From IMG/VR virus record IMGVR_UViG_2734482597_000010: a DNA stretch of 64,000 nt, one strand, 5' to 3'. The first letter of the stretch is position 1. Every line of letters starts with the position of its first letter. Of this stretch, positions 9,796-62,036 are shown piece after piece. Below the pieces are notes generated by a model. It had not been told where the DNA came from. It worked only from the letters and a program-made list of their open reading frames with translations, and made no database searches. The translations under genes and the position numbers were made by a program. The DNA is from a virus (Duplodnaviria; Heunggongvirae; Uroviricota; Caudoviricetes).

Positions 9796-10542
9796 ATGAA
9801 AAATATTGCGACAGGCGACGTTCTTGAACGTATCCGCAGACTGGCCCCGTCACATGTAACCGCGCCATTCAAGACGGTAGCGGAGTGGCGCGAGTGGCAA
9901 CTTTCCGAAGGCCAGAAACGTTGTGAGGAGATCAACCGTCAGAATCGTCAGTTGCGGGTGGAAAAAATTCTGAATCGCTCTGGCATCCAGCCATTGCACC
10001 GCAAATGCTCGTTTTCGAATTACCAGGTGCAGAACGAAGCGCAGCGATACGCGTTGAGTCAGGCGAAATCCATCGCTGATGAACTGATGANNNNNNNNNN
10101 NNNNNNNNNNNNNNNNNNNNNNNNNNNNNNNNNNNNNNNNNNNNNNNNNNNNNNNNNNNNNNNNNNNNNNNNNNNNNNNNNNNNNNNNNNNNNNNNNNNN
10201 NNNNNNNNNNNNNNNNNNNNNNNNNNNNNNNNNNNNNNNNNNNNNNNNNNNNNNNNNNNNNNNNNNNNNNNNNNNNNNNNNNNNNNNNNNNNNNNNNNNN
10301 NNNNNNNNNNNNNNNNNNNNNNNNNNNNNNNNNNNNNNNNGGTGGTGCTGCACCAGATTGTTGATCGCCGGACAGCGTCGATGCGCAGCGTGGGGATGCT
10401 GACAAACCTGAACTATGAGGCCATGAAAACATTGCTCGGCGAGCGGATTATGGATCGCATGACCATGAACGGCGGGCGATGGGTGAATTTTAACTGGGAG
10501 AGCTGGCGTCCGAATGTCGTCCAGCCAGGAATTGAGAAGTAA
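9796..10542 (+). CDS. ydaV: DnaC-like helicase loader YdaV (interrupted by N run)
   Basis: 248-aa ORF; internal 250-nt N run at 10091-10340 preserves frame. Confidence 0.7.
10091..10340. other. run of 250 N (gap or masked sequence) inside ydaV
   Basis: literal n characters in the sequence. Confidence 1.
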
Positions 10543-11896: not shown

Positions 11897-12919
11897 ATGC
11901 CCTGTATTTCGCTGTGGTATAATAGTTGCGCAATTGATACAAGGGAGCGTTACATCGTGAAAATTGTTTTCGAGGTTAATGGAAAGAAAGTTCCACTAAA
12001 ATCTTTAAAATACATAAGCAAAAAAGATCAACTCGAAGTAATGAAAAACTGGTTCTTTGAAAACTTTGAAGATCCGGCAAATGCTTGTCCGTATGAAAGT
12101 AGAGAAGGTGGCTATGCTTACATATATGGCGGGCCGTATGATGCGAGCGAAGAACTACAATCCATCTTCGGTCAATATGTTAAATCTGAGTATATTGAGG
12201 AATTAGTAGATGAATTACAAACACAATGTTTTGACTGGTCTGGAAACTCAAATAATATAGATGATTGGTACGATGATGATATCTACGACGCTGTAACGTC
12301 TTCCGGTAATCCGTATTTAAAATTCATTGATAATATCGATAAAATAAAAAAACTTGCAAAAGATAAAACTGAACAACAGCAAAAAAACCACTTGCTTAGT
12401 TTGCTCTACACGAATGTTATTACAGCTTTGGAAACGCTTTATGTTGAGCTATTCATTAATTCTATAGAGAAAGATGATGTCTACATAGCCAATTGTATAG
12501 AAAAAGGTAAGACTGAATTTAAAGTAAGCAAAGATATTGCTGCGTTGCCTTTCAAGGGTGAACCCATCGAGAAAATTAGGGGAGAGCTAATCAGGTCAAT
12601 CAAGGAACACTTGATCAGTGCAAGCTGGCATAGCACTAAAAAGGTAATCGACCGCTATGAAGCTACATTCGATATAAAAGTACAAAAAGACTGTCCGATA
12701 GAAGCTATTGAATTGGCAACCCTCAATCGAAATCACTTAGTGCATCGTGGTGGAAAGGATAAAGAAGGGAACCTCGTAGTGATTACAGACCAGGATCTTG
12801 AAACGCTGATTGAAAATGCATCGAACCTGGCAATTATGCTCTACAACAGTTTAAATGTAGCAACGAATAAAACCACCATTTTGCAACCAGATGACAAACC
12901 GTTCATTCATGAATTTTAA
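11897..12919 (+). CDS. hypothetical protein, 340 aa, C-terminal R-x4-H (HEPN-like) motif; candidate defence protein
   Basis: ATG at 11897 six nt after AAGGAGG (within the 363-aa ORF); AT-rich coding; RNHLVH motif near C-terminus. Confidence 0.55.
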   Translation: MPCISLWYNSCAIDTRERYIVKIVFEVNGKKVPLKSLKYISKKDQLEVMKNWFFENFEDPANACPYESREGGYAYIYGGPYDASEELQSIFGQYVKSEYIEELVDELQTQCFDWSGNSNNIDDWYDDDIYDAVTSSGNPYLKFIDNIDKIKKLAKDKTEQQQKNHLLSLLYTNVITALETLYVELFINSIEKDDVYIANCIEKGKTEFKVSKDIAALPFKGEPIEKIRGELIRSIKEHLISASWHSTKKVIDRYEATFDIKVQKDCPIEAIELATLNRNHLVHRGGKDKEGNLVVITDQDLETLIENASNLAIMLYNSLNVATNKTTILQPDDKPFIHEF

Positions 12920-12934
12920 TAGCGCAGGTCATAC

Positions 12935-19407: not shown

Positions 19408-19627
19408 ATGAAATCCATGGACAAAATTTCAACAGGCATTGCCTACGGCACCTCCGCAGGCAGTGCTGGCTACTGGTTTTTACAGTTGCNNNNNNNNNNN
19501 NNNNNNNNNNNNNNNNNNNNCTGCAATCGGTGTGCTGGGTAGTCTGGTATTTGGCCTGCTGACGTACCTGACAAACCTTTATTTCAAGATTAAAGAAGAT
19601 AAGCGCAAGGCTGCGAGAGGTGAATAA
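19408..19627 (+). CDS. phage-21-type holin (pinholin-like), interrupted by N run
   Basis: [26 protein letters not shown] ... [34 protein letters not shown] across a 31-nt N run. Confidence 0.7.
19490..19520. other. run of 31 N inside holin gene
   Basis: literal n characters; length not a multiple of 3, so frame is broken in the ORF track. Confidence 1.
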
Positions 19628-20585: not shown

Positions 20586-20722
20586 AATCTTAACTACAAT
20601 ATGATTCATTTTGATGATTGTTTCATAAGGAACAGTGAAGTAAGATCTAAGAGGAGTTAAATTTTATACAGTATAATCATAATATTGCAGCAAGGTGGTT
20701 ATAATTGAAAGAATATTTAGAT

Positions 20723-22180
20723 ATGAATACATCTCATGTAAGAGTTGTTACTCATATGTGTGGGTTCCTGGTTTGGCTCTATAGTCTTTCAATGTTGCCA
20801 CCAATGGTTGTAGCATTGTTTTATAAAGAAAAAAGCCTGTTCGTTTTCTTTATAACTTTCGTTATATTTTTTTGCATTGGTGGCGGAGCGTGGTATACAA
20901 CTAAGAAATCTGGCATTCAATTACGTACCCGTGATGGGTTTATTATAATTGTAATGTTTTGGATTTTGTTTTCTGTTATTAGTGCATTCCCTTTATGGAT
21001 TGACTCAGAACTTAATTTAACGTTCATTGATGCTCTGTTTGAAGGGGTTTCTGGAATAACAACAACAGGAGCAACTGTAATTGATGATGTTAGTTCATTA
21101 CCTCGGGCATATTTGTACTATCGGTCACAGTTAAATTTTATAGGTGGTTTAGGAGTTATTGTTCTGGCGGTTGCAGTATTGCCATTATTGGGTATTGGTG
21201 GTGCAAAGCTTTATCAGTCAGAAATGCCGGGGCCATTTAAGGATGACAAACTCACTCCCCGCCTGGCCGATACGTCACGGACACTGTGGATAACTTATTC
21301 TTTATTAGGTATTGCTTGTATTGTCTGTTATAGACTTGCAGGAATGCCTTTGTTTGATGCTATTTGTCACGGGATTTCCACAGTTTCGCTTGGTGGTTTC
21401 TCAACTCATAGCGAGAGTATCGGATATTTTAATAACTATTTGGTTGAGCTGGTGGCTGGTTCTTTTTCCCTGCTATCGGCTTTCAACTTCACTCTTTGGT
21501 ATATTGTTATTAGCAGAAAAACGATAAAACCTTTAATCAGAGATATTGAACTTCGTTTCTTTCTGTTAATAGCCTTAGGGGTGATCATTGTTACCTCTTT
21601 CCAGGTCTGGCATATAGGTATGTATGACTTGCATGGAAGTTTTATTCATTCGTTTTTTCTTGCCAGCTCCATGCTCACTGATAATGGTTTAGCTACGCAG
21701 GATTATGCAAACTGGCCCACGCACACGATAGTGTTTTTGCTGTTGTCAAGTTTCTTTGGGGGATGTATAGGTTCAACCTGTGGTGGAATTAAGTCACTTC
21801 GATTTCTTATACTTTTCAAACAAAGCAAACACGAGATAAATCAGCTTTCTCATCCCAGAGCGTTGTTGAGTGTAAATGTAGGAGGGAAGATAGTTACAGA
21901 TCGTGTAATGAGGTCTGTATGGAGTTTCTTTTTTCTTTATACTCTCTTCACGGTGTTTTTTATACTGGTGTTAAATGGTATGGGATATGATTTTCTTACA
22001 TCATTTGCAACAGTGGCTGCATGTATTAATAATATGGGATTAGGTTTTGGGGCTACTGCATCGTCATTCGGAGTGCTTAATGACATTGCAAAATATTTAA
22101 TGTGCATAGCTATGATTCTTGGTCGCCTTGAAATTTATCCTGTTATTATATTGTTTTCAGGTTTTTTTTGGCGCTCCTAA
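20723..22180 (+). CDS. trkG: Trk-system K+ uptake protein TrkG
   Basis: 485 aa from MNTSHVRVVTHMCGF within the 491-aa ORF; polytopic membrane protein; AT-rich; matches recalled K-12 TrkG. Confidence 0.9.
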   Translation: MNTSHVRVVTHMCGFLVWLYSLSMLPPMVVALFYKEKSLFVFFITFVIFFCIGGGAWYTTKKSGIQLRTRDGFIIIVMFWILFSVISAFPLWIDSELNLTFIDALFEGVSGITTTGATVIDDVSSLPRAYLYYRSQLNFIGGLGVIVLAVAVLPLLGIGGAKLYQSEMPGPFKDDKLTPRLADTSRTLWITYSLLGIACIVCYRLAGMPLFDAICHGISTVSLGGFSTHSESIGYFNNYLVELVAGSFSLLSAFNFTLWYIVISRKTIKPLIRDIELRFFLLIALGVIIVTSFQVWHIGMYDLHGSFIHSFFLASSMLTDNGLATQDYANWPTHTIVFLLLSSFFGGCIGSTCGGIKSLRFLILFKQSKHEINQLSHPRALLSVNVGGKIVTDRVMRSVWSFFFLYTLFTVFFILVLNGMGYDFLTSFATVAACINNMGLGFGATASSFGVLNDIAKYLMCIAMILGRLEIYPVIILFSGFFWRS

Positions 22181-22317
22181 TATATGGCTGATTTATAATT
22201 GTGAGTTTAATATTATGTTGACTCACTCATTGATCCAATACCTAACTTTACCAGCAACACCTCCGCCCCCAGTAGCACTGGCTGCTGGGGTGCGTTTTAT
22301 TCATAAAGCAAGGCTGT

Positions 22318-23106
22318 ATGAGCGAGAAATTAAAGATAGTCTATCGCCCATTACAAGAATTGTCACCGTATGCGCACAACGCCAGGACGCACAGTACTGA
22401 GCAGGTGGCACAACTGGTAGAAAGTATTAAGCAATTCGGCTGGACTAATCCGGTGCTGATTGACGAAAAGGGCGAAATTATTGCGGGTCACGGTCGTGTT
22501 ATGGCGGCTGAAATGCTCAAAATGGATTCTGTTCCGGTCATTGTTCTGTCTGGCCTGACGGATGAGCAGAAAAAGGCGTACCGCCTGGCAGATAATCGCC
22601 TGCCGATGAATGCTGGCTGGGATGAAGATCTGTTGCGGATGGAGCTGTCGGACCTAATCAATGCTGATTTTGATGTCTCCCTGACAGGCTTCATCCCGGC
22701 AGAAATTGATGAACTGTTGACGGATGTTTTGCCCGGTACAGGAAATGAGGAGGAGCCGTATACGACGAAAATTGATACGCCTGTTTATGAGCCGTCAGGC
22801 GGTAAACCGGATATCAGTGAACTGTACGACGATACGAAAACTCAGGAGCTGATCAGCCGGATACGTTCGGCGTCCCTTGATCCTGATATTGAGAAATTCC
22901 TCCTGTGTGCAGCAGAACGTCACACGGTGTTTAATTTCAGCAGAATTGCGGACTATTACGCTCATGCCCCCGCTGAAATTCAGTGCCTTTTCGAGGAGTC
23001 GGCGCTGGTGATCATTGATTATCAGCAGGCTATTGAAAATGGATTTGTCCGAATGACGCAGCGCATGGTGGAGATCATGCATGGCGGGGAGGAGGAATAT
23101 GCGTGA
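22318..23106 (+). CDS. ParB-like nuclease-domain protein (YnaK-like)
   Basis: 262-aa ORF; ParB N-terminal-type segment (VLIDEKGEIIAGHGRVMAAEML). Confidence 0.65.
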   Translation: MSEKLKIVYRPLQELSPYAHNARTHSTEQVAQLVESIKQFGWTNPVLIDEKGEIIAGHGRVMAAEMLKMDSVPVIVLSGLTDEQKKAYRLADNRLPMNAGWDEDLLRMELSDLINADFDVSLTGFIPAEIDELLTDVLPGTGNEEEPYTTKIDTPVYEPSGGKPDISELYDDTKTQELISRIRSASLDPDIEKFLLCAAERHTVFNFSRIADYYAHAPAEIQCLFEESALVIIDYQQAIENGFVRMTQRMVEIMHGGEEEYA

Positions 23107-24031
23107 TGATTTTTGCGCCTTTATTCTGACTCACGGGCGACCGGACAAAGTTCTGACTTACCGGACGTTGCGTCGTGCTGGCTATACCGGGAAAATTTTT
23201 ATCGTTGTTGATGATGAAGATAAGACACGGCATCAGTACATGGCTGAATTTGGTGAACAGGTGCTGGTATTTTCCAAAGCCGATATTGCTAGTCGTTTTG
23301 ACGAAGCCGATAATTTTAGTGACCGCCGCTCAATTTTTTACGCCCGTAATGCCTGTTTCGACCAGGCAAAACTGGTCGGGTGTAAATACTTCATTCAGCT
23401 CGATGATGATTATCACGAGTTCCAGTTTCGGGTGGATCGCAACTATGACCAGGCCTATTTCCCGATAAGGAAACTGGATGAGATCCTTTCTGAAATGCTT
23501 GCGTACTACGAATCAATACCTGCTCTTTCCATCGCTATGTCGCAGGGCGGGGATTTTCTTGGTGACAATGGCGGCCATGCTTCGTGGGTGAAACGCAAGG
23601 CAATGAACAGCTTTATCTGTTCGGTTGATCGACCGTTCTCATTCATGGGGCGCATTAACGAGGATGTGAATACGTACACGAATCTCGGTCGCTGTGGTGA
23701 ATTGTTTATGACGATCGGTGCTGTCCAGTTAGGGCAGAAACAGACGCAGAAAAACAGCGGCGGAATGACCGAGCTGTATCTGGATTCCGGAACCTACGTT
23801 AAAAGTTTTTACTCCGTCATGTATGCGCCGTCGTGCGTAAAAATCTCACTTATGGGTGCCAGTCATAAACGCATTCACCATCAGGTCACCTGGAACAACG
23901 CTGCAGTAAAAATCCTTCACGAAAAATACAGGAAGAAGACACCCTGCATATCAATGGGGGTGACAAATGATTCCGTATTCGAAAGTCGAGTCTCTGGCAG
24001 CGTGCCGGATGACTGCACAACAAATCGCTGA
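23099..24031 (+). CDS. hypothetical protein with GT-A-like glycosyltransferase signature
   Basis: ATG at 23099 after GGAGG (within the 316-aa ORF); FILTHGRPDKVL...IFIVVDDEDK and IQLDDDY (DxD-like). Confidence 0.45.
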   Translation: MRDDFCAFILTHGRPDKVLTYRTLRRAGYTGKIFIVVDDEDKTRHQYMAEFGEQVLVFSKADIASRFDEADNFSDRRSIFYARNACFDQAKLVGCKYFIQLDDDYHEFQFRVDRNYDQAYFPIRKLDEILSEMLAYYESIPALSIAMSQGGDFLGDNGGHASWVKRKAMNSFICSVDRPFSFMGRINEDVNTYTNLGRCGELFMTIGAVQLGQKQTQKNSGGMTELYLDSGTYVKSFYSVMYAPSCVKISLMGASHKRIHHQVTWNNAAVKILHEKYRKKTPCISMGVTNDSVFESRVSGSVPDDCTTNR

Positions 24032-24218
24032 CGTTCTGGATGTTGATCTGAACCGACTGAAAGAAAATCGGGAAGCAATGACAGATTTTTATGCGGCCAT
24101 CCGTAAGGGCAGAGCGAAAGGTGAAGCCGAGTTACGAGCGGCATTGTTTAAGCTTGCCAGAAAAGGGGATGCCTTTGCTCTGCGCGAACTACTCAGGGTG
24201 GATAAAAATCAGGACTAA
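24009..24218 (+). CDS. small putative DNA-binding protein
   Basis: internal ATG (MTAQQIADVL) of the 83-aa ORF; HTH-like. Confidence 0.35.
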   Translation: MTAQQIADVLDVDLNRLKENREAMTDFYAAIRKGRAKGEAELRAALFKLARKGDAFALRELLRVDKNQD

Positions 24219-24221
24219 CTG

Positions 24222-25316
24222 ATGAGCAGACCGGACTGGGGGGCGTTGCAGCAGGAGTATATTGCTGAATACACCCGCTCCGGTATATCTCCGGTGGCAT
24301 GGTGTGAAGCAAGGGGACTGAATTACGCAACAGCCCGTCGTTACATCAAAAAAACTCCGAAAAATGCGCAGACAGAAATGTGCAAAACTGCGCAAAAAAG
24401 TGCGCAGAAAAAATCTGCGCAGACTGCACAAAAGCGGAACGAAAAATCTCAGGAAAAAAAGCCAGTATTCGATGCGGGCCTGAATGAGGGCGACGCGGAG
24501 GAATTTTCGTTCTGTCCCGATGAATTCGGCATTTCTGACCAGCAGGCTAAGTTTGCGATGCTTGTTGCTCAGGGTAAAAAGCCGACAGAGGCGTACCGAC
24601 TAGCCGGTTATGAGGGGCAAGGTGCGACAGCTAACAGCAACGCCAGTCGTATGCTTAGAAATGCCAGGGTTTTTCGCGCTATCAGCTACTTCCGCAATCA
24701 GTACCAGAAACGCTATACCGCAGACCTGGATTTACTAGTGAGTCAGTTGATGGCTATTGTCCTGGCCGACCCCAATCAGCTTGCACAATTTCGCCGTGTT
24801 AACTGCCGTTATTGCTGGGGCGAGAATCATCTCTACCAGTGGCGCGATATAGCAGAATTCGACAAGGCAGCGGCGCAGGCTTCCAGAGATGGCAAACCCG
24901 AACCGGAATATGGAGGCCTCGGCTTTGTTGATAACGCCATACCCAATCCGGACTGCCCGAAGTGCTGCGGTGAGGGAACGGGACAGCTTTATATGGCTGA
25001 TACCACTCTGCTTGATGGGGATGCGCGGCAATTATATGCAGGGGCAAAATTCGGAAAATTCGGCGTTGAGATCCTGCTGGAGGATAAGGCTGCCGCCCGG
25101 CGTGAATTGTTGCGTTTGTTTTCTGCTGGCGGGGCTTTATGTGCAGATAAGCGGCTACGGGAACTGGAAATTGAACGGCGCAGAATGGAAAACCAGAAGC
25201 TGCGCAAAGAGATCGAAACGGTGGAAGATAATGAACATCCCCAGCCTGTGGCGATCAATATTAATGTGGTTGATGCCAGAGTAAGGAGTGATGAAGATGA
25301 TCTCTCCGACGCTTAA
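24222..25316 (+). CDS. putative terminase small subunit
   Basis: 364-aa ORF immediately upstream of and overlapping the large terminase gene; N-terminal HTH-like region. Confidence 0.55.
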   Translation: MSRPDWGALQQEYIAEYTRSGISPVAWCEARGLNYATARRYIKKTPKNAQTEMCKTAQKSAQKKSAQTAQKRNEKSQEKKPVFDAGLNEGDAEEFSFCPDEFGISDQQAKFAMLVAQGKKPTEAYRLAGYEGQGATANSNASRMLRNARVFRAISYFRNQYQKRYTADLDLLVSQLMAIVLADPNQLAQFRRVNCRYCWGENHLYQWRDIAEFDKAAAQASRDGKPEPEYGGLGFVDNAIPNPDCPKCCGEGTGQLYMADTTLLDGDARQLYAGAKFGKFGVEILLEDKAAARRELLRLFSAGGALCADKRLRELEIERRRMENQKLRKEIETVEDNEHPQPVAININVVDARVRSDEDDLSDA

Positions 25317-26598
25317 TGTGCCTCAGGCGCGATTTCTTTCAATGCCCCATAAATTTAAAGCCTATATTGCTGGTTTTGGCTCGGGCAAAACATGGGTTGG
25401 GTGTGGCGGCATATGCAAGGGGATTTGGGAGCATCCAGGTATAAATCAGGGATATTTTGCGCCAACGTATCCCCAAATTCGCGATATTTTTTACCCTACA
25501 GTGGAAGAAGTTGCTGCTGACTGGGGATTGAACGTAAAAATTAATGAGGGAAATAAAGAGGTTCACTTTTATTACGGACGCCAGTATCGGGGAACCACTA
25601 TCTGCAGATCGATGGAGAAGCCACAAACGATCGTCGGTTTCAAAATTGGTAATGCGTTGGTGGATGAACTGGACATTTTGCCGAAGGAAAAAGCCAGAAC
25701 GGCGTGGCGCAAGATAATTGCACGTATGCGTTATAAGATTGATGGACTTCGCAACGGTATTGACGTTACAACCACGCCGGAAGGATTCAAATTTGTCTAC
25801 GAGCAGTTTGTTAAAGCCGTGCGTGAAAAAACAGAGCTGGCCTCACTGTATGGTCTGGTGCAGGCATCTACTTTCGATAATGAAAAGAACCTGCCAGCAG
25901 ATTACATTCCTTCGCTTCTTGAATCATACCCTCCAGAGCTGATTAAAGCCTATCTTCGAGGACAGTTTACTAACCTGACAAGTGGTACTGTTTACCATCA
26001 GTTTGACCGGAAACTGAATAATTGCGAAGAAGTGGAGCAGCCAGGGGAGCCGATTTATATTGGGATGGATTTTAACGTTGGAAAGATGGCGGGAATCGTC
26101 CATGTGCTGCGTTTGGGGCTTCCATGTGCGGTAACTGAAATCATCAATGCCTACGATACGCCGGATATGATCCGCATCATTAAAGAACGCTTCTGGCTGT
26201 ATGATGGGAATGATTACCGGAAAGTGAGGGAAATTTATATTTATCCAGATGCTTCCGGGGATTCCAGAAAATCAAGTAACGCAAGTACGACGGATATAGC
26301 CCAGCTTAAGCAGGCTGGTTTTAACGTTGTGGTGAACAGCTCGAACCCGCCAGTAAAAGATCGCGTTAACTCAATGAATGCAATGTTCTGCAATGCCAAT
26401 GGTGAGCGTCGCTATAAAGTTAATGTGAAGCGTTGCCCGTTATATGCCGAATCTCTGGAGCAACAGGTCTGGGATGAGAAGGGGGAGCCTGATAAAAAAT
26501 CTGGCAATGATCACCCGAATGATGCCGGAGGTTATTTCATCGTTAAGCAATTCCCTATTGTCAAACCGACCGGAAGAGTCACATCACTTCGGATTTAA
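25288..26598 (+). CDS. terminase large subunit
   Basis: 436-aa ORF; Walker A-like GFGSGKT; position before portal. Confidence 0.8.
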   Translation: MMKMISPTLNVPQARFLSMPHKFKAYIAGFGSGKTWVGCGGICKGIWEHPGINQGYFAPTYPQIRDIFYPTVEEVAADWGLNVKINEGNKEVHFYYGRQYRGTTICRSMEKPQTIVGFKIGNALVDELDILPKEKARTAWRKIIARMRYKIDGLRNGIDVTTTPEGFKFVYEQFVKAVREKTELASLYGLVQASTFDNEKNLPADYIPSLLESYPPELIKAYLRGQFTNLTSGTVYHQFDRKLNNCEEVEQPGEPIYIGMDFNVGKMAGIVHVLRLGLPCAVTEIINAYDTPDMIRIIKERFWLYDGNDYRKVREIYIYPDASGDSRKSSNASTTDIAQLKQAGFNVVVNSSNPPVKDRVNSMNAMFCNANGERRYKVNVKRCPLYAESLEQQVWDEKGEPDKKSGNDHPNDAGGYFIVKQFPIVKPTGRVTSLRI

Positions 26599-39676: not shown

Positions 39677-40003
39677 NNNNNNNNNNNNNNNNNNNNNNNN
39701 NNNNNNNNNNNNNNNNNNNNNNNNNNNNNNNNNNNNNNNNNNNNNNNNNNNNNNNNNNNNNNNNNNNNNNNNNNNNNNNNNNNNNNNNNNNNNNNNNNNN
39801 NNNNNNNNNNNNNNNNNNNNNNNNNNNNNNNNNNNNNNNNNNNNNNNNNNNNNNNNNNNNNNNNNNNNNNNNNNNNNNNNNNNNNNNNNNNNNNNNNNNN
39901 NNNNNNNNNNNNNNNNNNNNNNNNNNNNNNNNNNNNNNNNNNNNNNNNNNNNNNNNNNNNNNNNNNNNNNNNNNNNNNNNNNNNNNNNNNNNNNNNNNNN
40001 NNN
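39677..40003. other. run of 327 N spanning K/I junction
   Basis: literal n characters; K start to I end is 74 nt shorter than in copy 2, so the run is not length-true. Confidence 1.
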
Positions 40004-57673: not shown

Positions 57674-60600
57674 ATGGGTAAAGGCAGCAGTAAGGGGCAT
57701 ACCCCGCGCGAAGCGAAGGACAACCTGAAGTCCACGCAGCTGCTGAGTGTGATCGATGCCATCAGCGAAGGGCCGGTTGAAGGTCCGGTGGATGGATTAA
57801 AAAGCGTGCTGCTGAACAGTACGCCGGTGCTGGACAGTGAGGGGAATACCAACATCTCCGGCGTCACGGTGGTGTTCCGGGCAGGTGAGCAGGAGCAGTC
57901 ACCGCCGGAGGGATTTGAATCCTCCGGCTCCGAGACGGTGCTGGGTACGGAAGTGAAATATGACACGCCGATCACCCGGACCATCACGTCGGCAAACATT
58001 GACCGACTGCGTTTTACCTTCGGTGTACAGGCACTGGTGGAAACCACCTCAAAGGGAGACAGGAATCCGTCTGAAGTTCGCCTGCTGGTTCAGATACAGC
58101 GTAACGGTGGCTGGGTGACGGAAAAAGACATCACCATTAAGGGCAAAACCACCTCGCAGTATCTGGCCTCGGTGGTGGTGGATAACCTGCCGCCGCGCCC
58201 GTTTAATATCCGGATGCGCAGAATGACGCCGGACAGCACCACAGACCAGCTGCAGAACAAAACGCTCTGGTCGTCATACACCGAAATCATCGATGTGAAA
58301 CAGTGCTACCCGAACACGGCACTGGTCGGCGTACAGGTGGATTCGGAGCAGTTCGGCAGCCAGCAGGTGAGCCGTAATTATCATCTTCGCGGGCGCATTC
58401 TGCAGGTGCCGTCGAACTATAATCCGCAGACGCGGCAATACAGCGGTATCTGGGACGGAACGTTAAAACCGGCATACAGCAACAACATGGCCTGGTGTCT
58501 GTGGGATATGCTGACCCATCCGCGCTATGGCATGGGGAAACGTCTTGGTGCGGCAGATGTGGATAAATGGGCGCTGTATGTCATCGGCCAGTACTGTGAC
58601 CAGTCGGTGCCGGACGGCTTTGGCAGCACGGAGCCGCGCATCACCTGTAATGCCTGGCTGACCACACAGCGCAAGGCGTGGGATGTGCTCAGTGATTTCT
58701 GCTCGGCGATGCGCTGTATGCCGGTATGGAACGGGCAGACGCTGACGTTCGTGCAGGACCGACAGTCGGATAAGGTGTGGGCCTATAACCGCAGTAATGT
58801 GGTGATGCCGGATGATGGCGCGCCGTTCCGCTACAGTTTCAGCGCCCTGAAAGACCGCCATAATGCCGTTGAGGTGAACTGGATTGACCCGGATAACGGC
58901 TGGGAGACGGCGACAGAGCTTGTGGAGGATACGCAGGCCATTGTCCGTTACGGTCGTAACGTCACGAAGATGGATGCCTTTGGCTGTACCAGCCGGGGGC
59001 AGGCACACCGCGCCGGGCTGTGGCTGATTAAAACGGAACTGCTGGAGACGCAGACCGTGGATTTCAGCGTGGGTGCTGAAGGGCTTCGTCATGTACCGGG
59101 CGATGTCATTGAAATCTGCGATGATGACTATGCCGGTATCCGCACCGGCGGGCGCGTGCTGGCGGTGAACAGCCAGACCCGGACGCTGACGCTCGACCGT
59201 GAAATCACGCTGCCATCCTCCGGCACCACGCTGATAAGCCTGGTTGACGGGCAGGGGAATCCGGTCAGCGTGGAGGTCCAGTCCGTCACCGACGGCGTGA
59301 AGGTAAAAGTGAGCCGTGTTCCTGACGGTGTTGCTGAATACAGCGTGTGGGGGCTGAAGCTGCCGACGCTGCACCAGCGATTGTTCCGCTGCGTGAGTAN
59401 NNNNNNNNNNNNNNNNNNNNNNNNNNNNNNNNNNNNNNNNNNNNNNNNNNNNNNNNNNNNNNNNNNNNNNNNNNNNNNNNNNNNNNNNNNNNNNNNNNNN
59501 NNNNNNNNNNNNNNNNNNNNNNNNNNNNNNNNNNNNNNNNNNNNNNNNNNNNNNNNNNNNNNNNNNNNNNNNNNNNNNNNNNNNNNNNNNNNNNNNNNNN
59601 NNNNNNNNNNNNNNNNNNNNNNNNNNNNNNNNNNNNNNNNNNNNNNNNNNNNNNNNNNNNNNNNNNNNNNNNNNNNNNNNNNNNNNNNNNNNNNNNNNNN
59701 NNNNNNNNNNNNNNNNNNNGCTGACAGTCCGGGCAGTAAATGCGTGGGGGCAGCAGGNNNNNNNNNNNNNNNNNNNNNNNNNNNNNNNNNNNNNNNNNNN
59801 NNNNNNNNNNNNNNNNNNNNNNNNNNNNNNNNNNNNNNNNNNNNNNNNNNNNNNNNNNNNNNNNNNNNNNNNNNNNNNNNNNNNNNNNNNNNNNNNNNNN
59901 NNNNNNNNNNNNNNNNNNNNNNNNNNNNNNNNNNNNNNNNNNNNNNNNNNNNNNNNNNNNNNNNNNNNNNNNNNNNNNNNNNNNNNNNNNNNNNNNNNNN
60001 NNNNNNNTGATTATTACTTTTATATCCGCAGTGTGAACACCGTTGGCAAATCGGCATTCGTGGAGGCTGTTGGTCAGCCGAGTGATGATGCATCCGGTTA
60101 TCTGGATTTTTTCAAAGGCGAGATAGGGAAAACCCATCTGGCTCAGGAGCTGTGGACGCAGATTGATAACGGTCAGCTTGCGCCTGACCTGGCTGAAATC
60201 AGGACGTCCATTACGGATGTCAGCAATGAAATCACGCAGACCGTCAATAAGAAACTGGAAGACCAGAGTGCGGCAATTCAGCAGATACAGAAGGTTCAGG
60301 TTGATACAAATAATAACCTGAACAGCATGTGGGCTGTGAAGCTGCAGCAGATGCAGGACGGACGCCTTTATATCGCGGGTATTGGTGCCGGTATTGAGAA
60401 CACCCCTGACGGCATGCAGAGTCAGGTGCTGCTGGCGGCGGACAGGATTGCGATGGTTAATCCTGCGAATGGCAACACAAAACCGATGTTTGTTGGTCAG
60501 GGCGATCAGATATTCATGAACGACGTGTTCCTGAAACGCCTGACGGCCCCCACCATTACCAGCGGTGGAAATCCATCGGCATTTTCCCTGACTCCGGACG

Positions 60601-61227: not shown

Positions 61228-62036
61228 ATGCGTAAAGTTTGTGCAGCCATTTTGTCCGCAGCCATTTGCCTGGCCGTATCCGGTGCGCCTGCATGGGCGT
61301 CTGAACATCAGTCCACGCTGAGCGCGGGGTATCTTCATGCCCGGACCAACGTTCCCGGCAGTGATGATCTGAACGGGATTAACGTGAAATACCGTTATGA
61401 GTTTACGGATACGCTGGGGCTGGTGACGTCATTCAGCTATGCAGGAGACAAGAATCGCCAGCTGACCCGTTACAGCGATACCCGCTGGCATGAAGATTCC
61501 GTGCGTAACCGCTGGTTCAGCGTGATGGCGGGGCCGTCTGTGCGCGTGAATGAATGGTTCAGCGCGTATGCGATGGCGGGTGTGGCTTACAGCCGTGTGT
61601 CGACTTTCTCCGGGGATTATCTCCGCGTAACTGACAACAAGGGGAAAACGCACGACGTGCTGACCGGAAGTGATGACGGTCGCCACAGCAACACGTCTCT
61701 GGCGTGGGGAGCTGGCGTGCAGTTTAACCCGACCGAATCCGTGGCCATTGATATTGCTTATGAAGGCTCCGNNNNNNNNNNNNNNNNNNNNNNNNNNNNN
61801 NNNNNNNNNNNNNNNNNNNNNNNNNNNNNNNNNNNNNNNNNNNNNNNNNNNNNNNNNNNNNNNNNNNNNNNNNNNNNNNNNNNNNNNNNNNNNNNNNNNN
61901 NNNNNNNNNNNNNNNNNNNNNNNNNNNNNNNNNNNNNNNNNNNNNNNNNNNNNNNNNNNNNNNNNNNNNNNNNNNNNNNNNNNNNNNNNNNNNNNNNNNN
62001 NNNNNNNNNNNNNNNNNNNNNTCGGTTATAAATTCT
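61228..62036 (+). CDS. lom: outer membrane protein Lom (interrupted by N run)
   Basis: signal peptide MRKVCAAILSAAICLAVSGAPAWA; matches recalled lambda Lom through ...IAYEGS, then N run, then ...GYKF stop. Confidence 0.8.
61772..62021. other. run of 250 N inside lom 3' end
   Basis: literal n characters; longer than the ~60 nt expected to be missing. Confidence 1.

What the first reader, a model, noticed from the sequence alone, without database searches (positions are those of the whole stretch)
22318..24031. ParB-like nuclease-domain protein plus GT-A-like protein immediately upstream of the terminase genes
ORF 22318-23106 has a ParB N-terminal-type segment (IAGHGRVMAAEM). The overlapping next ORF (23099-24031) shows the N-terminal pattern of GT-A fold glycosyltransferases (FILTHGRPDKVL ... 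IFIVVDDEDK ... IQLDDDY). From memory, K-12 Rac retains only remnants at this position (ynaK, ydaY). ParB-like domains next to modification enzymes at the start of the packaging module are typical of phage DNA-modification or anti-restriction cassettes. Here the partner looks like a glycosyltransferase rather than the usual methyltransferase, which would be unusual for a lambdoid phage.
Basis: partly seen in the sequence, partly recalled or inferred. Interest (0 to 1): 0.5.

Follow-up and report, generated by a model that had tools for sequence, protein, structure and literature searches.

The report
ParB-partnered phage glycosyltransferase cassette
Just ahead of the DNA-packaging genes, this E. 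coli prophage carries a conserved, widespread gene pair: a sugar-transferring enzyme from a family known to decorate phage DNA, and an obligate ParB-like partner. It lacks the enzyme that normally makes the attachment point for the sugar, so the target of the sugar is unknown.

Summary

- **Coupling.** The genes overlap by 8 nt and lie directly upstream of terS/terL in a Rac-like prophage. Both are under strong purifying selection (dN/dS 0.06-0.14).
- **Frequency.** The pair is not rare. It is intact in 889 of 5,426 complete E. coli genomes.
- **Conservation.** The same order (partner, then TAGT, usually then terminase) holds in 47 of 49 diverse loci. These span Proteobacteria, Bacteroidota, Firmicutes, Actinobacteria and a haloarchaeal virus.
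- **ORF1 is modular.** Its ParB domain also occurs alone in the pre-terminase slot, or fused to DNA methyltransferases. Its conserved linker motif plus C-terminal domain is the part tied to the glycosyltransferase, and in two loci that part occurs without the ParB domain.
- **Missing acceptor.** No TET/JBP or thymidylate-synthase-like gene accompanies the pair, here or elsewhere. The hydroxymethyl acceptor used by every characterised DNA glycosyltransferase is therefore absent.

Best reading (about 0.45): a late-expressed, partner-activated module that glycosylates phage DNA. Main rival: protein glycosylation, possibly of the partner itself. I found no experimental study of the pair.

The parts
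22267..22300 (+). Terminator-like hairpin plus T-run ending the trkG moron, 27 nt before the ORF1 ATG. No sigma-70-like promoter was found between it and ORF1.
   Evidence: 10-bp stem with 7 GC pairs, tail TGCGTTTTAT. This implies ORF1 and ORF2 are transcribed by read-through of the antiterminated late transcript (inference).
22318..22722 (+). ORF1 residues 1-135: ParB/Srx-fold nucleotide-binding domain plus helical region. The P-motif GHGR (R60) and the ADN motif (N93) are conserved.
22723..22821 (+). ORF1 residues 136-168: acidic linker predicted to be disordered, carrying the conserved motif Y-[TS]-x-K-x(3)-P-x-Y-E-P.
   Evidence: pLDDT below 50 for residues 136-167. Y148, P155 and Y157 are invariant, and T149, K151 and P159 nearly so, across phyla. 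Position 149 is T or S in all 14 diverse sequences.
22822..23106 (+). ORF1 residues 169-262: conserved helical C-terminal domain (FL..AA.RH..F.F..IA.YY....Q.L.E.SALVIID..AI..G) with an acidic tail. This is the module tied to the glycosyltransferase.
   Evidence: No Pfam or PDB match. It occurs with the linker motif, but without the ParB domain, as a small protein directly upstream of the TAGT gene in Vibrio phage pv27 (L091 6459-6878) and in MAG L121 (4899-5294).
23099..24031 (+). ORF2: soluble GT-A glycosyltransferase of the TAGT family (PF20691). The core is residues 1-288. The last 22 residues are an E. coli-specific extension.
   Evidence: No membrane segment. The C-terminal half is basic, pI 9.5.
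23402..23410 (+). DxD motif (D102-D103-D104) of ORF2, the expected site for the metal and the NDP-sugar.
   Evidence: Invariant in 26 of 26 aligned homologues. Codons GAT GAT GAT were read directly. Its role follows from the general GT-A mechanism (established knowledge).
23099..23106 (+). 8-nt overlap of the ORF1 stop and the ORF2 start (ATGCGTGA), with GGAGGAGG at 23088-23095. This is an arrangement typical of translational coupling.
   Evidence: Start/stop overlaps of a few to a few tens of nt (about 8-14 nt is the commonest class; my ORF caller takes the earliest start) recur in most of the 47 paired loci.
23967..24218 (+). Small ORF (83 aa; PGAP starts it at about 24009) resembling a piece of a terminase small subunit.
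   Evidence: phrog_309, 8.3e-23. PGAP calls it a hypothetical protein.
24222..25316 (+). Terminase small subunit (context).
   Evidence: Pfam Terminase_2 and phrog_51, 7.1e-75.
25288..26598 (+). Terminase large subunit (context).
   Evidence: Pfam Terminase_6N 3.7e-33 and Terminase_6C.

Best explanation
ORF1 and ORF2 form a two-protein glycosylation module, transcribed as the first genes of the late packaging operon.

- **ORF2** is the catalyst. It is a soluble, metal-dependent GT-A enzyme of the TAGT family that transfers a sugar from an NDP-sugar.
- **ORF1** is its obligate partner. The conserved linker motif and C-terminal domain bind, and probably activate or position, the transferase. The N-terminal ParB/Srx nucleotide-binding domain is the same module that phages fuse to DNA methyltransferases or place alone in front of terminase. 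It ties the activity to replicated phage DNA about to be packaged.
- **Most likely substrate:** phage DNA, modified after replication so that progeny genomes are protected from host nucleases.

Shown here: the folds, the family membership, the intact catalytic motif, the obligate pairing and translational-coupling arrangement, the modularity of ORF1, the conserved genomic position, purifying selection, and the absence of any hydroxymethyl-base pathway.

Inferred: physical interaction between the two proteins, late expression, DNA as acceptor, and a protective role. The chemical acceptor is unknown. Because no 5hmC or 5hmU source exists, it would have to differ from every characterised DNA glycosyltransferase.
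For: - **Family.** PF20691 at 118.9 bits against a cut-off of 27.5, and phrog_842. Characterised TAGT members include the T2/T6 beta-glucosyl-HMC-alpha-glucosyltransferase, which acts on DNA (PMC13216743). Related GT-A phage enzymes glycosylate 5hmC in DNA (bioRxiv 2023.12.21.572611).
- **Catalytic competence.** GT-A fold. D38, D41, D102-104, N187-E188-D189 and H260-H261 are invariant. dN/dS is 0.06-0.07.
- **Obligate pairing.** An ORF1-family gene lies immediately upstream on the same strand in 47 of 49 diverse loci, usually with overlapping stop and start. These include a haloarchaeal virus and Lactobacillus, Nocardia and Porphyromonas phages.
- **Modularity.** A partner with only the C-terminal module precedes TAGT in replication modules. 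Proteins with only the ParB domain (58-61% identical) sit directly before terS/terL. The same ParB-domain type is fused to DNA methyltransferases (PMC12704722).
- **Precedent.** A phage ParB-like protein lacking a DNA-binding domain is required to activate a DNA thymine dioxygenase on dsDNA (PMC13229309).
- **Context is always DNA handling.** A terminase lies within 4 kb downstream in at least 35 of 42 loci. Otherwise the neighbours are helicase or primase genes.
- **Charge.** The half of the GT that should bind the acceptor is basic, pI 9.5, and the family median pI is 8.7.
Against: - No TET/JBP, thymidylate-synthase-like hydroxymethylase or other source of a hydroxylated base exists in this prophage, in the complete genomes of phages c5 and phi jlb1, or within +/-8 kb in 12 diverse loci. 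No known chemistry for glycosylating canonical DNA supports the model.
- ORF1 is extremely acidic in every domain (pI 4.5, net charge -24; family range 4.25-4.67) and has no helix-turn-helix. That is odd for a DNA-loading factor.
- A TAGT-like domain in GREB1 glycosylates a protein (PMC7968844).
- The C-terminal half of the ORF2 model and the C-terminal domain of ORF1 were predicted with low to medium confidence.
- I found no report of modified DNA in any phage that carries the pair.
Confidence: 0.45

Rival explanations
1. Protein glycosylation. ORF2 glycosylates a protein, not DNA. The most likely target is its own partner, at the invariant hydroxyl residues of the disordered linker motif (T/S149, Y148, Y157), in the way glycogenin glucosylates a tyrosine. 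Alternatively the target is a packaging protein to which ORF1 recruits it.
For: - The linker is predicted to be disordered, yet carries invariant Y, T/S, K, P, Y, E and P residues from E. coli to Lactobacillus and archaeal viruses. That pattern is typical of a recognition or acceptor peptide.
- The motif travels with the GT even when the ParB domain is absent.
- The acidic partner is complementary in charge to the basic C-terminal half of the GT.
- The TAGT-like domain of GREB1 O-GlcNAcylates a protein.
- This reading removes the missing-acceptor problem.
Against: - A conserved linear motif is equally well explained as a docking or activation element.
- The pair sits in DNA-handling modules (packaging or replication), not among the structural genes where phage virion-glycosylating enzymes are usually encoded.
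- The ParB-domain type is shared with DNA methyltransferase fusions.
- No biological role for a glycosylated ParB-like protein is apparent.
Confidence: 0.27
2. Two unrelated functions that merely share a slot. The ParB-like protein serves packaging or late-gene control near the terminase. The glycosyltransferase is an independent accessory gene that acts on some small molecule or a cell-envelope component.
For: ParB-domain-only homologues occupy the same pre-terminase slot without any enzyme. trkG next door shows that this region accepts accessory genes.
Against: - 47 of 49 loci keep the two genes adjacent, on the same strand and mostly overlapping.
- The part of ORF1 specific to the GT (motif plus C-terminal domain) follows the GT into other genomic contexts.
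- ORF2 has no membrane segment or signal. No GtrA/GtrB-like partners typical of phage O-antigen glucosylation are present.
Confidence: 0.08
3. A prophage-encoded defence. The pair is expressed in the lysogen and glycosylates, or otherwise interferes with, the DNA of superinfecting phages, for example hmC-containing T-even phages.
For: Such a role for prophage glycosyltransferases has been proposed as speculation. The pair persists intact in a prophage that is otherwise decaying: frameshifts, an internal stop and an IS1 insertion lie in other genes.
Against: - The pair is also present in phage c5, whose annotated genome has no integrase (my reading; I know c5 as a virulent cos-type phage). It is the first gene pair after the c5 cos site. 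In Nocardia phage NTR1 it lies directly before terL.
- In the window it lies behind a terminator with no detectable promoter.
- There is no PADLOC defence-system match, apart from the ParB part of a methyltransferase model.
Confidence: 0.07

Closest known systems
T2/T6 beta-glucosyl-HMC-alpha-glucosyltransferase, the founding characterised phage member of Pfam PF20691 (TAGT)
   Same: Same Pfam family, GT-A fold and DxD motif. PHROG 842 carries this name. There is a structural match to a T4-like homologue from Klebsiella phage PKO111 (E 1.5e-5).
   Different: - Only about 13-22% identical.
- The T-even enzyme adds a second glucose to glucosyl-5hmC made by a dedicated hmC pathway and a first glucosyltransferase. 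None of that exists here.
- As far as I know, the T-even enzyme has no ParB-like partner and is not next to terminase (own knowledge, not checked here).
Metavirome GT-A DNA glycosyltransferases acting on 5hmC downstream of methyltransferase plus 5mYOX/TET (Pyle et al., bioRxiv 2023.12.21.572611; Burke et al. PMC8256090)
   Same: GT-A phage enzymes that modify DNA after replication. ParB-like genes and terminase are listed among their neighbours.
   Different: Those pathways are defined by a 5mYOX or a ThyS-like gene within 10 kb. The cassette here has neither.
ParB-dependent phage thymine dioxygenases (5mYOX176 with ParB176; PMC13229309)
   Same: A ParB-like protein with a nucleotide-binding domain, a linker and a C-terminal domain, but no DNA-binding domain. 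It is encoded next to a DNA-modifying enzyme and is required for that enzyme's activity on dsDNA. The pairing is specific to the cognate partners.
   Different: The partner enzyme there is an Fe/2-oxoglutarate dioxygenase, not a glycosyltransferase. Sequence relatedness of the C-terminal domains could not be tested because no sequences were available. That paper associates glycosyltransferases with the ParB-independent dioxygenase clade.
ParB_N-DNA methyltransferase fusion proteins of phages and prophages (phrog_498; PF02195 plus PF01555; PMC12704722)
   Same: ORF1's N-terminal domain is most similar to the ParB domain of these fusions (6e-51). They are enriched in prophages.
   Different: Here the effector is a separate, translationally coupled glycosyltransferase, recruited through a dedicated C-terminal domain. 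It is not a fused methyltransferase.
DpdA/DpdB 7-deazaguanine DNA modification system (own knowledge, not checked here)
   Same: A ParB-like NTPase (DpdB) is needed for a DNA-modifying enzyme (DpdA) to act on DNA.
   Different: The chemistry is unrelated (base exchange by a transglycosylase). It is a bacterial island, not a phage late operon.
GREB1, an animal protein with a TAGT-like domain (PMC7968844)
   Same: The glycosyltransferase domain is homologous. PGAP names ORF2 'GREB1-related protein'.
   Different: GREB1 is a 1,949-aa multidomain eukaryotic protein reported to O-GlcNAcylate the oestrogen receptor. It is relevant only as a precedent for a protein acceptor.

Membership tests
Pfam PF20691 TAGT (TET-associated glycosyltransferase) | Profile match above the curated gathering score | tested here: met
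   118.9 bits against a cut-off of 27.5, E 3.7e-34, residues 8-222. Homologues carry the same precomputed domain.
Pfam PF20691 TAGT (TET-associated glycosyltransferase) | GT-A (nucleotide-diphospho-sugar transferase) fold with a DxD motif | tested here: met
Pfam PF20691 TAGT (TET-associated glycosyltransferase) | Genomic association with a TET/JBP (5mYOX) dioxygenase or another source of 5-hydroxymethylpyrimidine | tested here: not met
   None in the whole prophage, none in complete phages c5 and phi jlb1, and none at E<7.5e-10 among 147 neighbour proteins of 12 diverse loci.
Pfam PF20691 TAGT (TET-associated glycosyltransferase) | Sugar transfer to hydroxymethylated or glucosylated bases in DNA | not testable with these tools
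   This needs biochemistry or nucleoside mass spectrometry.
ParB/Srx superfamily (PF02195 ParB_N) | Profile match above the gathering score, and the ParB/Srx fold | tested here: met
ParB/Srx superfamily (PF02195 ParB_N) | Conserved nucleotide-binding motifs (Box II GxxR arginine; Box III asparagine) | tested here: met
   GHGR, with G57 and R60 invariant, aligns with the GERR motif of Noc. The A91-D92-N93 motif is conserved, with N93 invariant. Actual NTP binding was not tested.
Canonical partition ParB (ParABS; TIGR00180) | HTH DNA-binding domain, ParA partner and ParA-binding motif, and the equivalog score | tested here: not met
   TIGR00180 scored 38.1 bits against a cut-off of 58.45. No HTH appears in the model and no domain hit lies beyond residue 94. 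No parA is annotated nearby. ORF1 is not a partition protein.
ParB-like activators of phage DNA-modifying enzymes (5mYOX-associated ParB, PMC13229309) | Architecture of nucleotide-binding domain, short helical segment, disordered linker and C-terminal domain, with no DNA-binding domain, encoded beside its cognate enzyme | tested here: met
   AlphaFold model: nucleotide-binding domain at residues 1-100, helices at 103-134, disordered at 136-167, helical C-terminal domain at 166-255. Adjacent to and overlapping the enzyme gene.
ParB-like activators of phage DNA-modifying enzymes (5mYOX-associated ParB, PMC13229309) | Sequence homology to ParB176 and demonstrated activation of the partner enzyme | not testable with these tools
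   No ParB176 sequence is held. Showing activation needs an experiment.
ParB_N-DNA methyltransferase fusions (phrog_498) | A methyltransferase domain fused C-terminally to the ParB domain | tested here: not met
   Matches cover only the ParB part: phrog_498 positions 31-171 of 633, and PADLOC MTase_II positions 13-151 of 436.
Phage O-antigen glucosylation (Gtr) systems | Membrane-bound GtrA, GtrB and GtrC proteins | tested here: not met
   ORF1 and ORF2 have no hydrophobic segment (maximum Kyte-Doolittle 19-residue mean 1.25 and 1.08). No gtr genes are annotated.

The most novel reading that the evidence does not exclude
The cassette carries out a DNA glycosylation that does not depend on hydroxymethylated bases. 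A ParB/Srx-partnered GT-A enzyme would attach a sugar directly to canonical DNA, either a base nucleophile or a DNA end, as genomes are handed to the terminase. In some relatives the sugar would be further methylated, sulfated or extended. This would be a new kind of DNA modification, present in about one in six E. coli genomes and in viruses of both bacteria and archaea.
Probability: 0.2. Interest if true: 0.85.

Novelty: new variant of a known kind. Interest (0 to 1): 0.6.

Why it matters
Every characterised DNA glycosyltransferase needs 5hmC, 5hmU or a sugar already attached to one of them. A 2026 survey noted that 288 of 753 TAGT-encoding phages have a 'solitary' TAGT of unknown function (PMC13216743). 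This work gives that orphan class a defined anatomy:
- an obligate partner, whose conserved motif and C-terminal domain are the module specific to the glycosyltransferase;
- an interchangeable ParB/Srx domain shared with methyltransferase fusions;
- a fixed place in front of the terminase, in phages from E. coli to haloarchaea.

If the target is DNA, this is an unrecognised and very common DNA modification that would affect restriction, phage defence and sequencing of temperate phage genomes. If the target is a protein, it is a new viral protein-glycosylation system, and a prokaryotic model for the GREB1 enzyme family. Either outcome can be tested directly in E. coli with two cloned genes.

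Tried and rejected
- **Canonical partition ParB:** rejected. ORF1 scores below the TIGR00180 cut-off, has no HTH, and has no parA neighbour.
- **ParB 'nuclease' assisting terminase as the sole function of the pair:** not enough on its own. The GT-specific C-terminal domain and the obligate pairing also need explaining.
- **Seroconversion or cell-surface glycosyltransferase:** rejected. Both proteins are soluble and there are no gtr genes.
- **Decaying pseudogenes in a defective prophage:** rejected by dN/dS of 0.06-0.14 and by conservation across phyla.
- **A hidden hydroxymethyl pathway:** none found in the prophage, in two complete phage genomes, or in 12 diverse loci. In the first 50 kb read of the 191-kb Vibrio phage pv27 genome, the only candidate is a thymidylate synthase paired with DHFR, which suggests ordinary dTMP synthesis.
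- **Function of the ORF1 C-terminal domain:** no Pfam or PDB homologue, only noise.
- **Identity of the P-loop domain fused to some TAGTs:** unresolved. There is no PDB match, and only a weak phrog_800 hit.
- **Literature:** Iyer et al. 2013 (NAR), which defined TAGT, is not held. What it says about ParB-TAGT pairs is known to me only through a citation in PMC13229309. Searches for any experimental work on the pair or on ynaK found nothing relevant.
- **Structure prediction with distant homologues:** The models rest on alignments of at least 55% identity, which probably explains the low confidence of the C-terminal regions.
- **parS-like or pac-like repeats around the cassette:** nothing convincing.
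Full report
**1. What is there**

The window is a Rac-like lambdoid prophage of E. coli. Over the query stretch (22318-24031) it is 100% identical to strain EC2, NZ_CP058571. The prophage runs from intR at the left end to tfaR at about 49.5 kb.

The order on the + strand is: lysis genes, the trkG accessory gene (20705-22180) with a terminator-like hairpin at 22267-22290, ORF1 (22318-23106, 262 aa), ORF2 (23099-24031, 310 aa), a small terS-like ORF, terS, terL, portal and a Mu-F-like head protein.

The ORF1 stop and the ORF2 start overlap by 8 nt, and a GGAGGAGG ribosome-binding site lies inside the end of ORF1. This arrangement is typical of translational coupling. No sigma-70-like promoter lies between the trkG terminator and ORF1. 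The pair is therefore probably read from the antiterminated late transcript together with the packaging genes. That is an inference.

**2. ORF2 is a TAGT-family GT-A glycosyltransferase**

- It matches Pfam PF20691 (TET-associated glycosyltransferase) at 3.7e-34 and phrog_842 at 7.5e-104. PGAP names it 'GREB1-related protein'.
- The AlphaFold model has mean pLDDT 65.6. The N-terminal half is above 90 and the C-terminal half is poor.
- Against predicted viral structures, the best hits are TAGT-domain proteins. A T4-like 'beta-glucosyl-HMC-alpha-glucosyltransferase' also matches, at E 1.5e-5.
- In 26 homologues of 58-82% identity, D38, D41, the DxD triplet D102-D104, N187-E188-D189-V190 and H260-H261 are invariant.
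- The protein is soluble. Its C-terminal half is basic, pI 9.5, and the family median pI is 8.7.
- The family is large. There are more than 8,000 close sequences, and 1,323 clusters at 50% identity with E<=1e-3, of which 491 have E<=1e-30.
- The E. coli copy has a 22-residue C-terminal extension, absent in other genera, that overlaps the next ORF.

**3. ORF1 is a composite of two modules**

*N-terminal domain (residues 1-135).* This part has the ParB/Srx fold.
- Pfam ParB_N scores above its threshold.
- A profile search of the PDB finds Noc, ParB and Spo0J, with GHGR aligned to the GERR phosphate-binding motif.
- It is not a partition ParB. It scores below the TIGR00180 cut-off, has no HTH, and has no parA neighbour.
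- Its closest relatives are the ParB domains fused to phage DNA methyltransferases (phrog_498 6e-51; PADLOC MTase_II 1.5e-38, covering the ParB part only).

*Linker and C-terminal domain.* Residues 136-168 are predicted to be disordered, yet carry a motif, Y-[TS]-x-K-x3-P-x-Y-E-P, that is conserved from E. coli to Lactobacillus and haloarchaeal viruses. Residues 169-262 form a conserved helical domain with no Pfam or PDB relative.

*Charge.* The whole protein is strongly acidic: pI 4.5, net charge -24, and 4.25-4.67 across the family.

**4. The pairing is obligate, and the modules separate informatively**

I examined 49 diverse loci: this window, metagenomic contigs, cultured phages, and one genome per species from GTDB.
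- In 47 of them, an ORF1-family gene lies immediately upstream of the TAGT gene on the same strand, usually overlapping it.
- The taxa include Enterobacterales, Bacteroides/Prevotella, Clostridia, Desulfovibrionaceae, Chlorobi, Planctomycetes and Acidimicrobiia.
- They also include Lactobacillus phages phi jlb1 and c5, Nocardia phage NTR1, a Porphyromonas phage, and the haloarchaeal virus HHTV-2.
- A large-terminase gene follows within 4 kb in at least 35 of 42 loci with enough sequence. At least four different terminase families are involved.
- In phage c5 the pair forms the first two genes after the cos site.

Two exceptions are instructive. In Vibrio jumbo phage pv27 and in a Bacteroidetes MAG, the upstream partner is a 131-139-aa protein made only of the linker motif plus the C-terminal domain. 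In both cases the pair sits in a replication module, next to helicase or primase genes, and not beside a terminase.

The converse also occurs. Proteins of about 200 aa that share only the ParB domain (58-61% identical) sit alone directly before terS/terL in Yersinia phage vB_YpM_44 and Vibrio phage XM1.

So the motif plus C-terminal domain is the module specific to the glycosyltransferase. The ParB domain is a general platform of the pre-terminase slot, and elsewhere it carries methyltransferases.

Both genes are under purifying selection: dN/dS is 0.06-0.07 for ORF2 and 0.12-0.14 for ORF1.

**5. Further hints about the product**

Some family members are fused to other domains:
- a SAM-dependent methyltransferase (P0248, P0252, L126:3581-5275);
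- a sulfotransferase (P0290);
- a second TAGT-like domain (P0266, P0268, P0281);
- a P-loop domain (P0270, P0304, P0315).

One locus (L126) has the partner, a TAGT-methyltransferase fusion and then a second TAGT. These suggest that in some lineages the product is a decorated or extended glycan.

**6. The missing acceptor**

Characterised DNA glycosyltransferases act on 5hmC, on 5hmU, or on a sugar already attached to one of them. These include the T4 alpha- and beta-glucosyltransferases, the T2/T6 TAGT, the base-J glucosyltransferase and the metavirome GT-A enzymes.

No TET/JBP dioxygenase, thymidylate-synthase-like hydroxymethylase or DNA methyltransferase is annotated anywhere in this prophage. 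None is annotated in the complete genomes of c5 and phi jlb1. Among 147 neighbour proteins from 12 diverse loci, none matched at E<7.5e-10.

The defining genomic association of the TAGT family is therefore not met. The acceptor must be something every host or phage provides.

**7. Mechanism**

My best reading (about 0.45) is a late-expressed, partner-activated DNA glycosylation module. The arguments for it are:
- family membership of ORF2;
- the shared ParB-domain type with DNA methyltransferase fusions;
- neighbours that always handle DNA;
- the basic acceptor side of the enzyme;
- the 2026 demonstration that a phage ParB-like protein without a DNA-binding domain is required for a thymine dioxygenase to act on dsDNA (PMC13229309).

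The main rival (about 0.27) is protein glycosylation, possibly of the partner's own linker at T/S149, Y148 or Y157. It is supported by:
- the invariant motif in a disordered segment;
- the complementary charges of the two proteins;
- the structural resemblance to glycogenin;
- the report that the TAGT-like domain of GREB1 glycosylates a protein.

Two minor rivals are poorly supported: independent functions that share a slot, and a lysogen-expressed defence.

**8. Comparison with what is known, and novelty**

The two domains and the TAGT family are already annotated. A role for ParB homologues in directing DNA-modification enzymes was hypothesised in 2013 by Iyer et al., which I know only through its citation, because the paper is not held.

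I found no experimental work on ParB-TAGT pairs or on ynaK. A 2026 paper explicitly lists solitary TAGTs as enzymes of undefined function.

I therefore rate this a new variant of a known kind. It is a TAGT enzyme that lacks the family's defining upstream pathway and instead has an obligate, modular partner.

**9.

- The pair is common, not unusual. It is intact in 889 of 5,426 complete E. coli genomes, and another roughly 700 genomes carry only fragments like the one in K-12.
- K-12 ynaK is the 87-aa N-terminal stump of ORF1. ydaY is a tail-region gene made adjacent by the deletion, not a remnant of the glycosyltransferase.
- PGAP labels the intact ORF1 of this strain as a truncated ynaK pseudogene. 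The uninterrupted 262-codon ORF in the window shows the gene is intact.

Noticed in passing
window 22318-22575 (L001 20001-20258): PGAP annotates the intact 262-aa ORF1 of this strain as an incomplete 'ynaK' pseudogene missing its C-terminus. The likely cause is that the reference K-12 YnaK is itself an 87-aa deletion fragment. The intact gene is therefore invisible in many RefSeq annotations.
   Followed up: yes
window 23966-24031: E. coli, Shigella and E. ruysiae copies of ORF2 carry a 22-residue C-terminal extension that is absent in Salmonella, Klebsiella, Serratia and more distant homologues. It overlaps the start of the next ORF (23967-24218).
   Followed up: partly
window 24347-24423: Three to four direct repeats of about AAAAAnnTGCGCAGA lie in the 5' part of terS. 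They encode a K/Q/A-rich repeat (KKTPKNAQ..KTAQKSAQKKSAQTAQK). They could be a pac or TerS recognition site, or simply low-complexity coding sequence.
   Followed up: no
window 20705-22300: The potassium transporter gene trkG sits as an accessory gene between the lysis and packaging modules. It has its own terminator-like hairpin (22267-22290) only 27 nt before ORF1.
   Followed up: partly
window about 8.9-10.5 kb, 33.0-34.0 kb and 35.0-39.0 kb (from L001 annotation): The prophage copy is defective. ydaU is frameshifted, ydaV has an internal stop, the tail tube gene is frameshifted, and the tape-measure gene is split by an IS1 insertion. ORF1, ORF2 and the terminase genes remain intact.
   Followed up: no
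window about 11960-12922 (L001 9643-10605): A 320-aa hypothetical protein in the early or nin region has a weak match to HEPN/RES N-terminal domain 1 (E 1.9e-4, below the cut-off). It may be an accessory defence or toxin gene. The next gene is frameshifted.
   Followed up: no
window 10091-10340, 19490-19520, 39677-40003, 59400-59719, 59758-60007, 61772-62021: These are runs of N (masked sequence) in the window. One interrupts the holin (essD) region. None touches the finding.
   Followed up: yes
L004 17837-20316 and L005 8659-11138: A metagenomic phage with the ParB-TAGT pair also carries four consecutive GT2-family glycosyltransferase genes right after its capsid gene. This may be a separate virion-glycosylation set.
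   Followed up: no
P0290, P0248, P0252, P0270, P0304, P0315; L126 2614-6161: Some TAGT homologues are fused to a sulfotransferase, a SAM methyltransferase or an uncharacterised P-loop domain. One locus has the partner, a TAGT-methyltransferase fusion and then a second TAGT. This implies tailored or multi-sugar products in some lineages.
   Followed up: partly
window about 50.4-53.9 kb (L094 6095-9544): The sitABCD iron/manganese transporter operon lies immediately to the right of the prophage end (tfaR).
   Followed up: no
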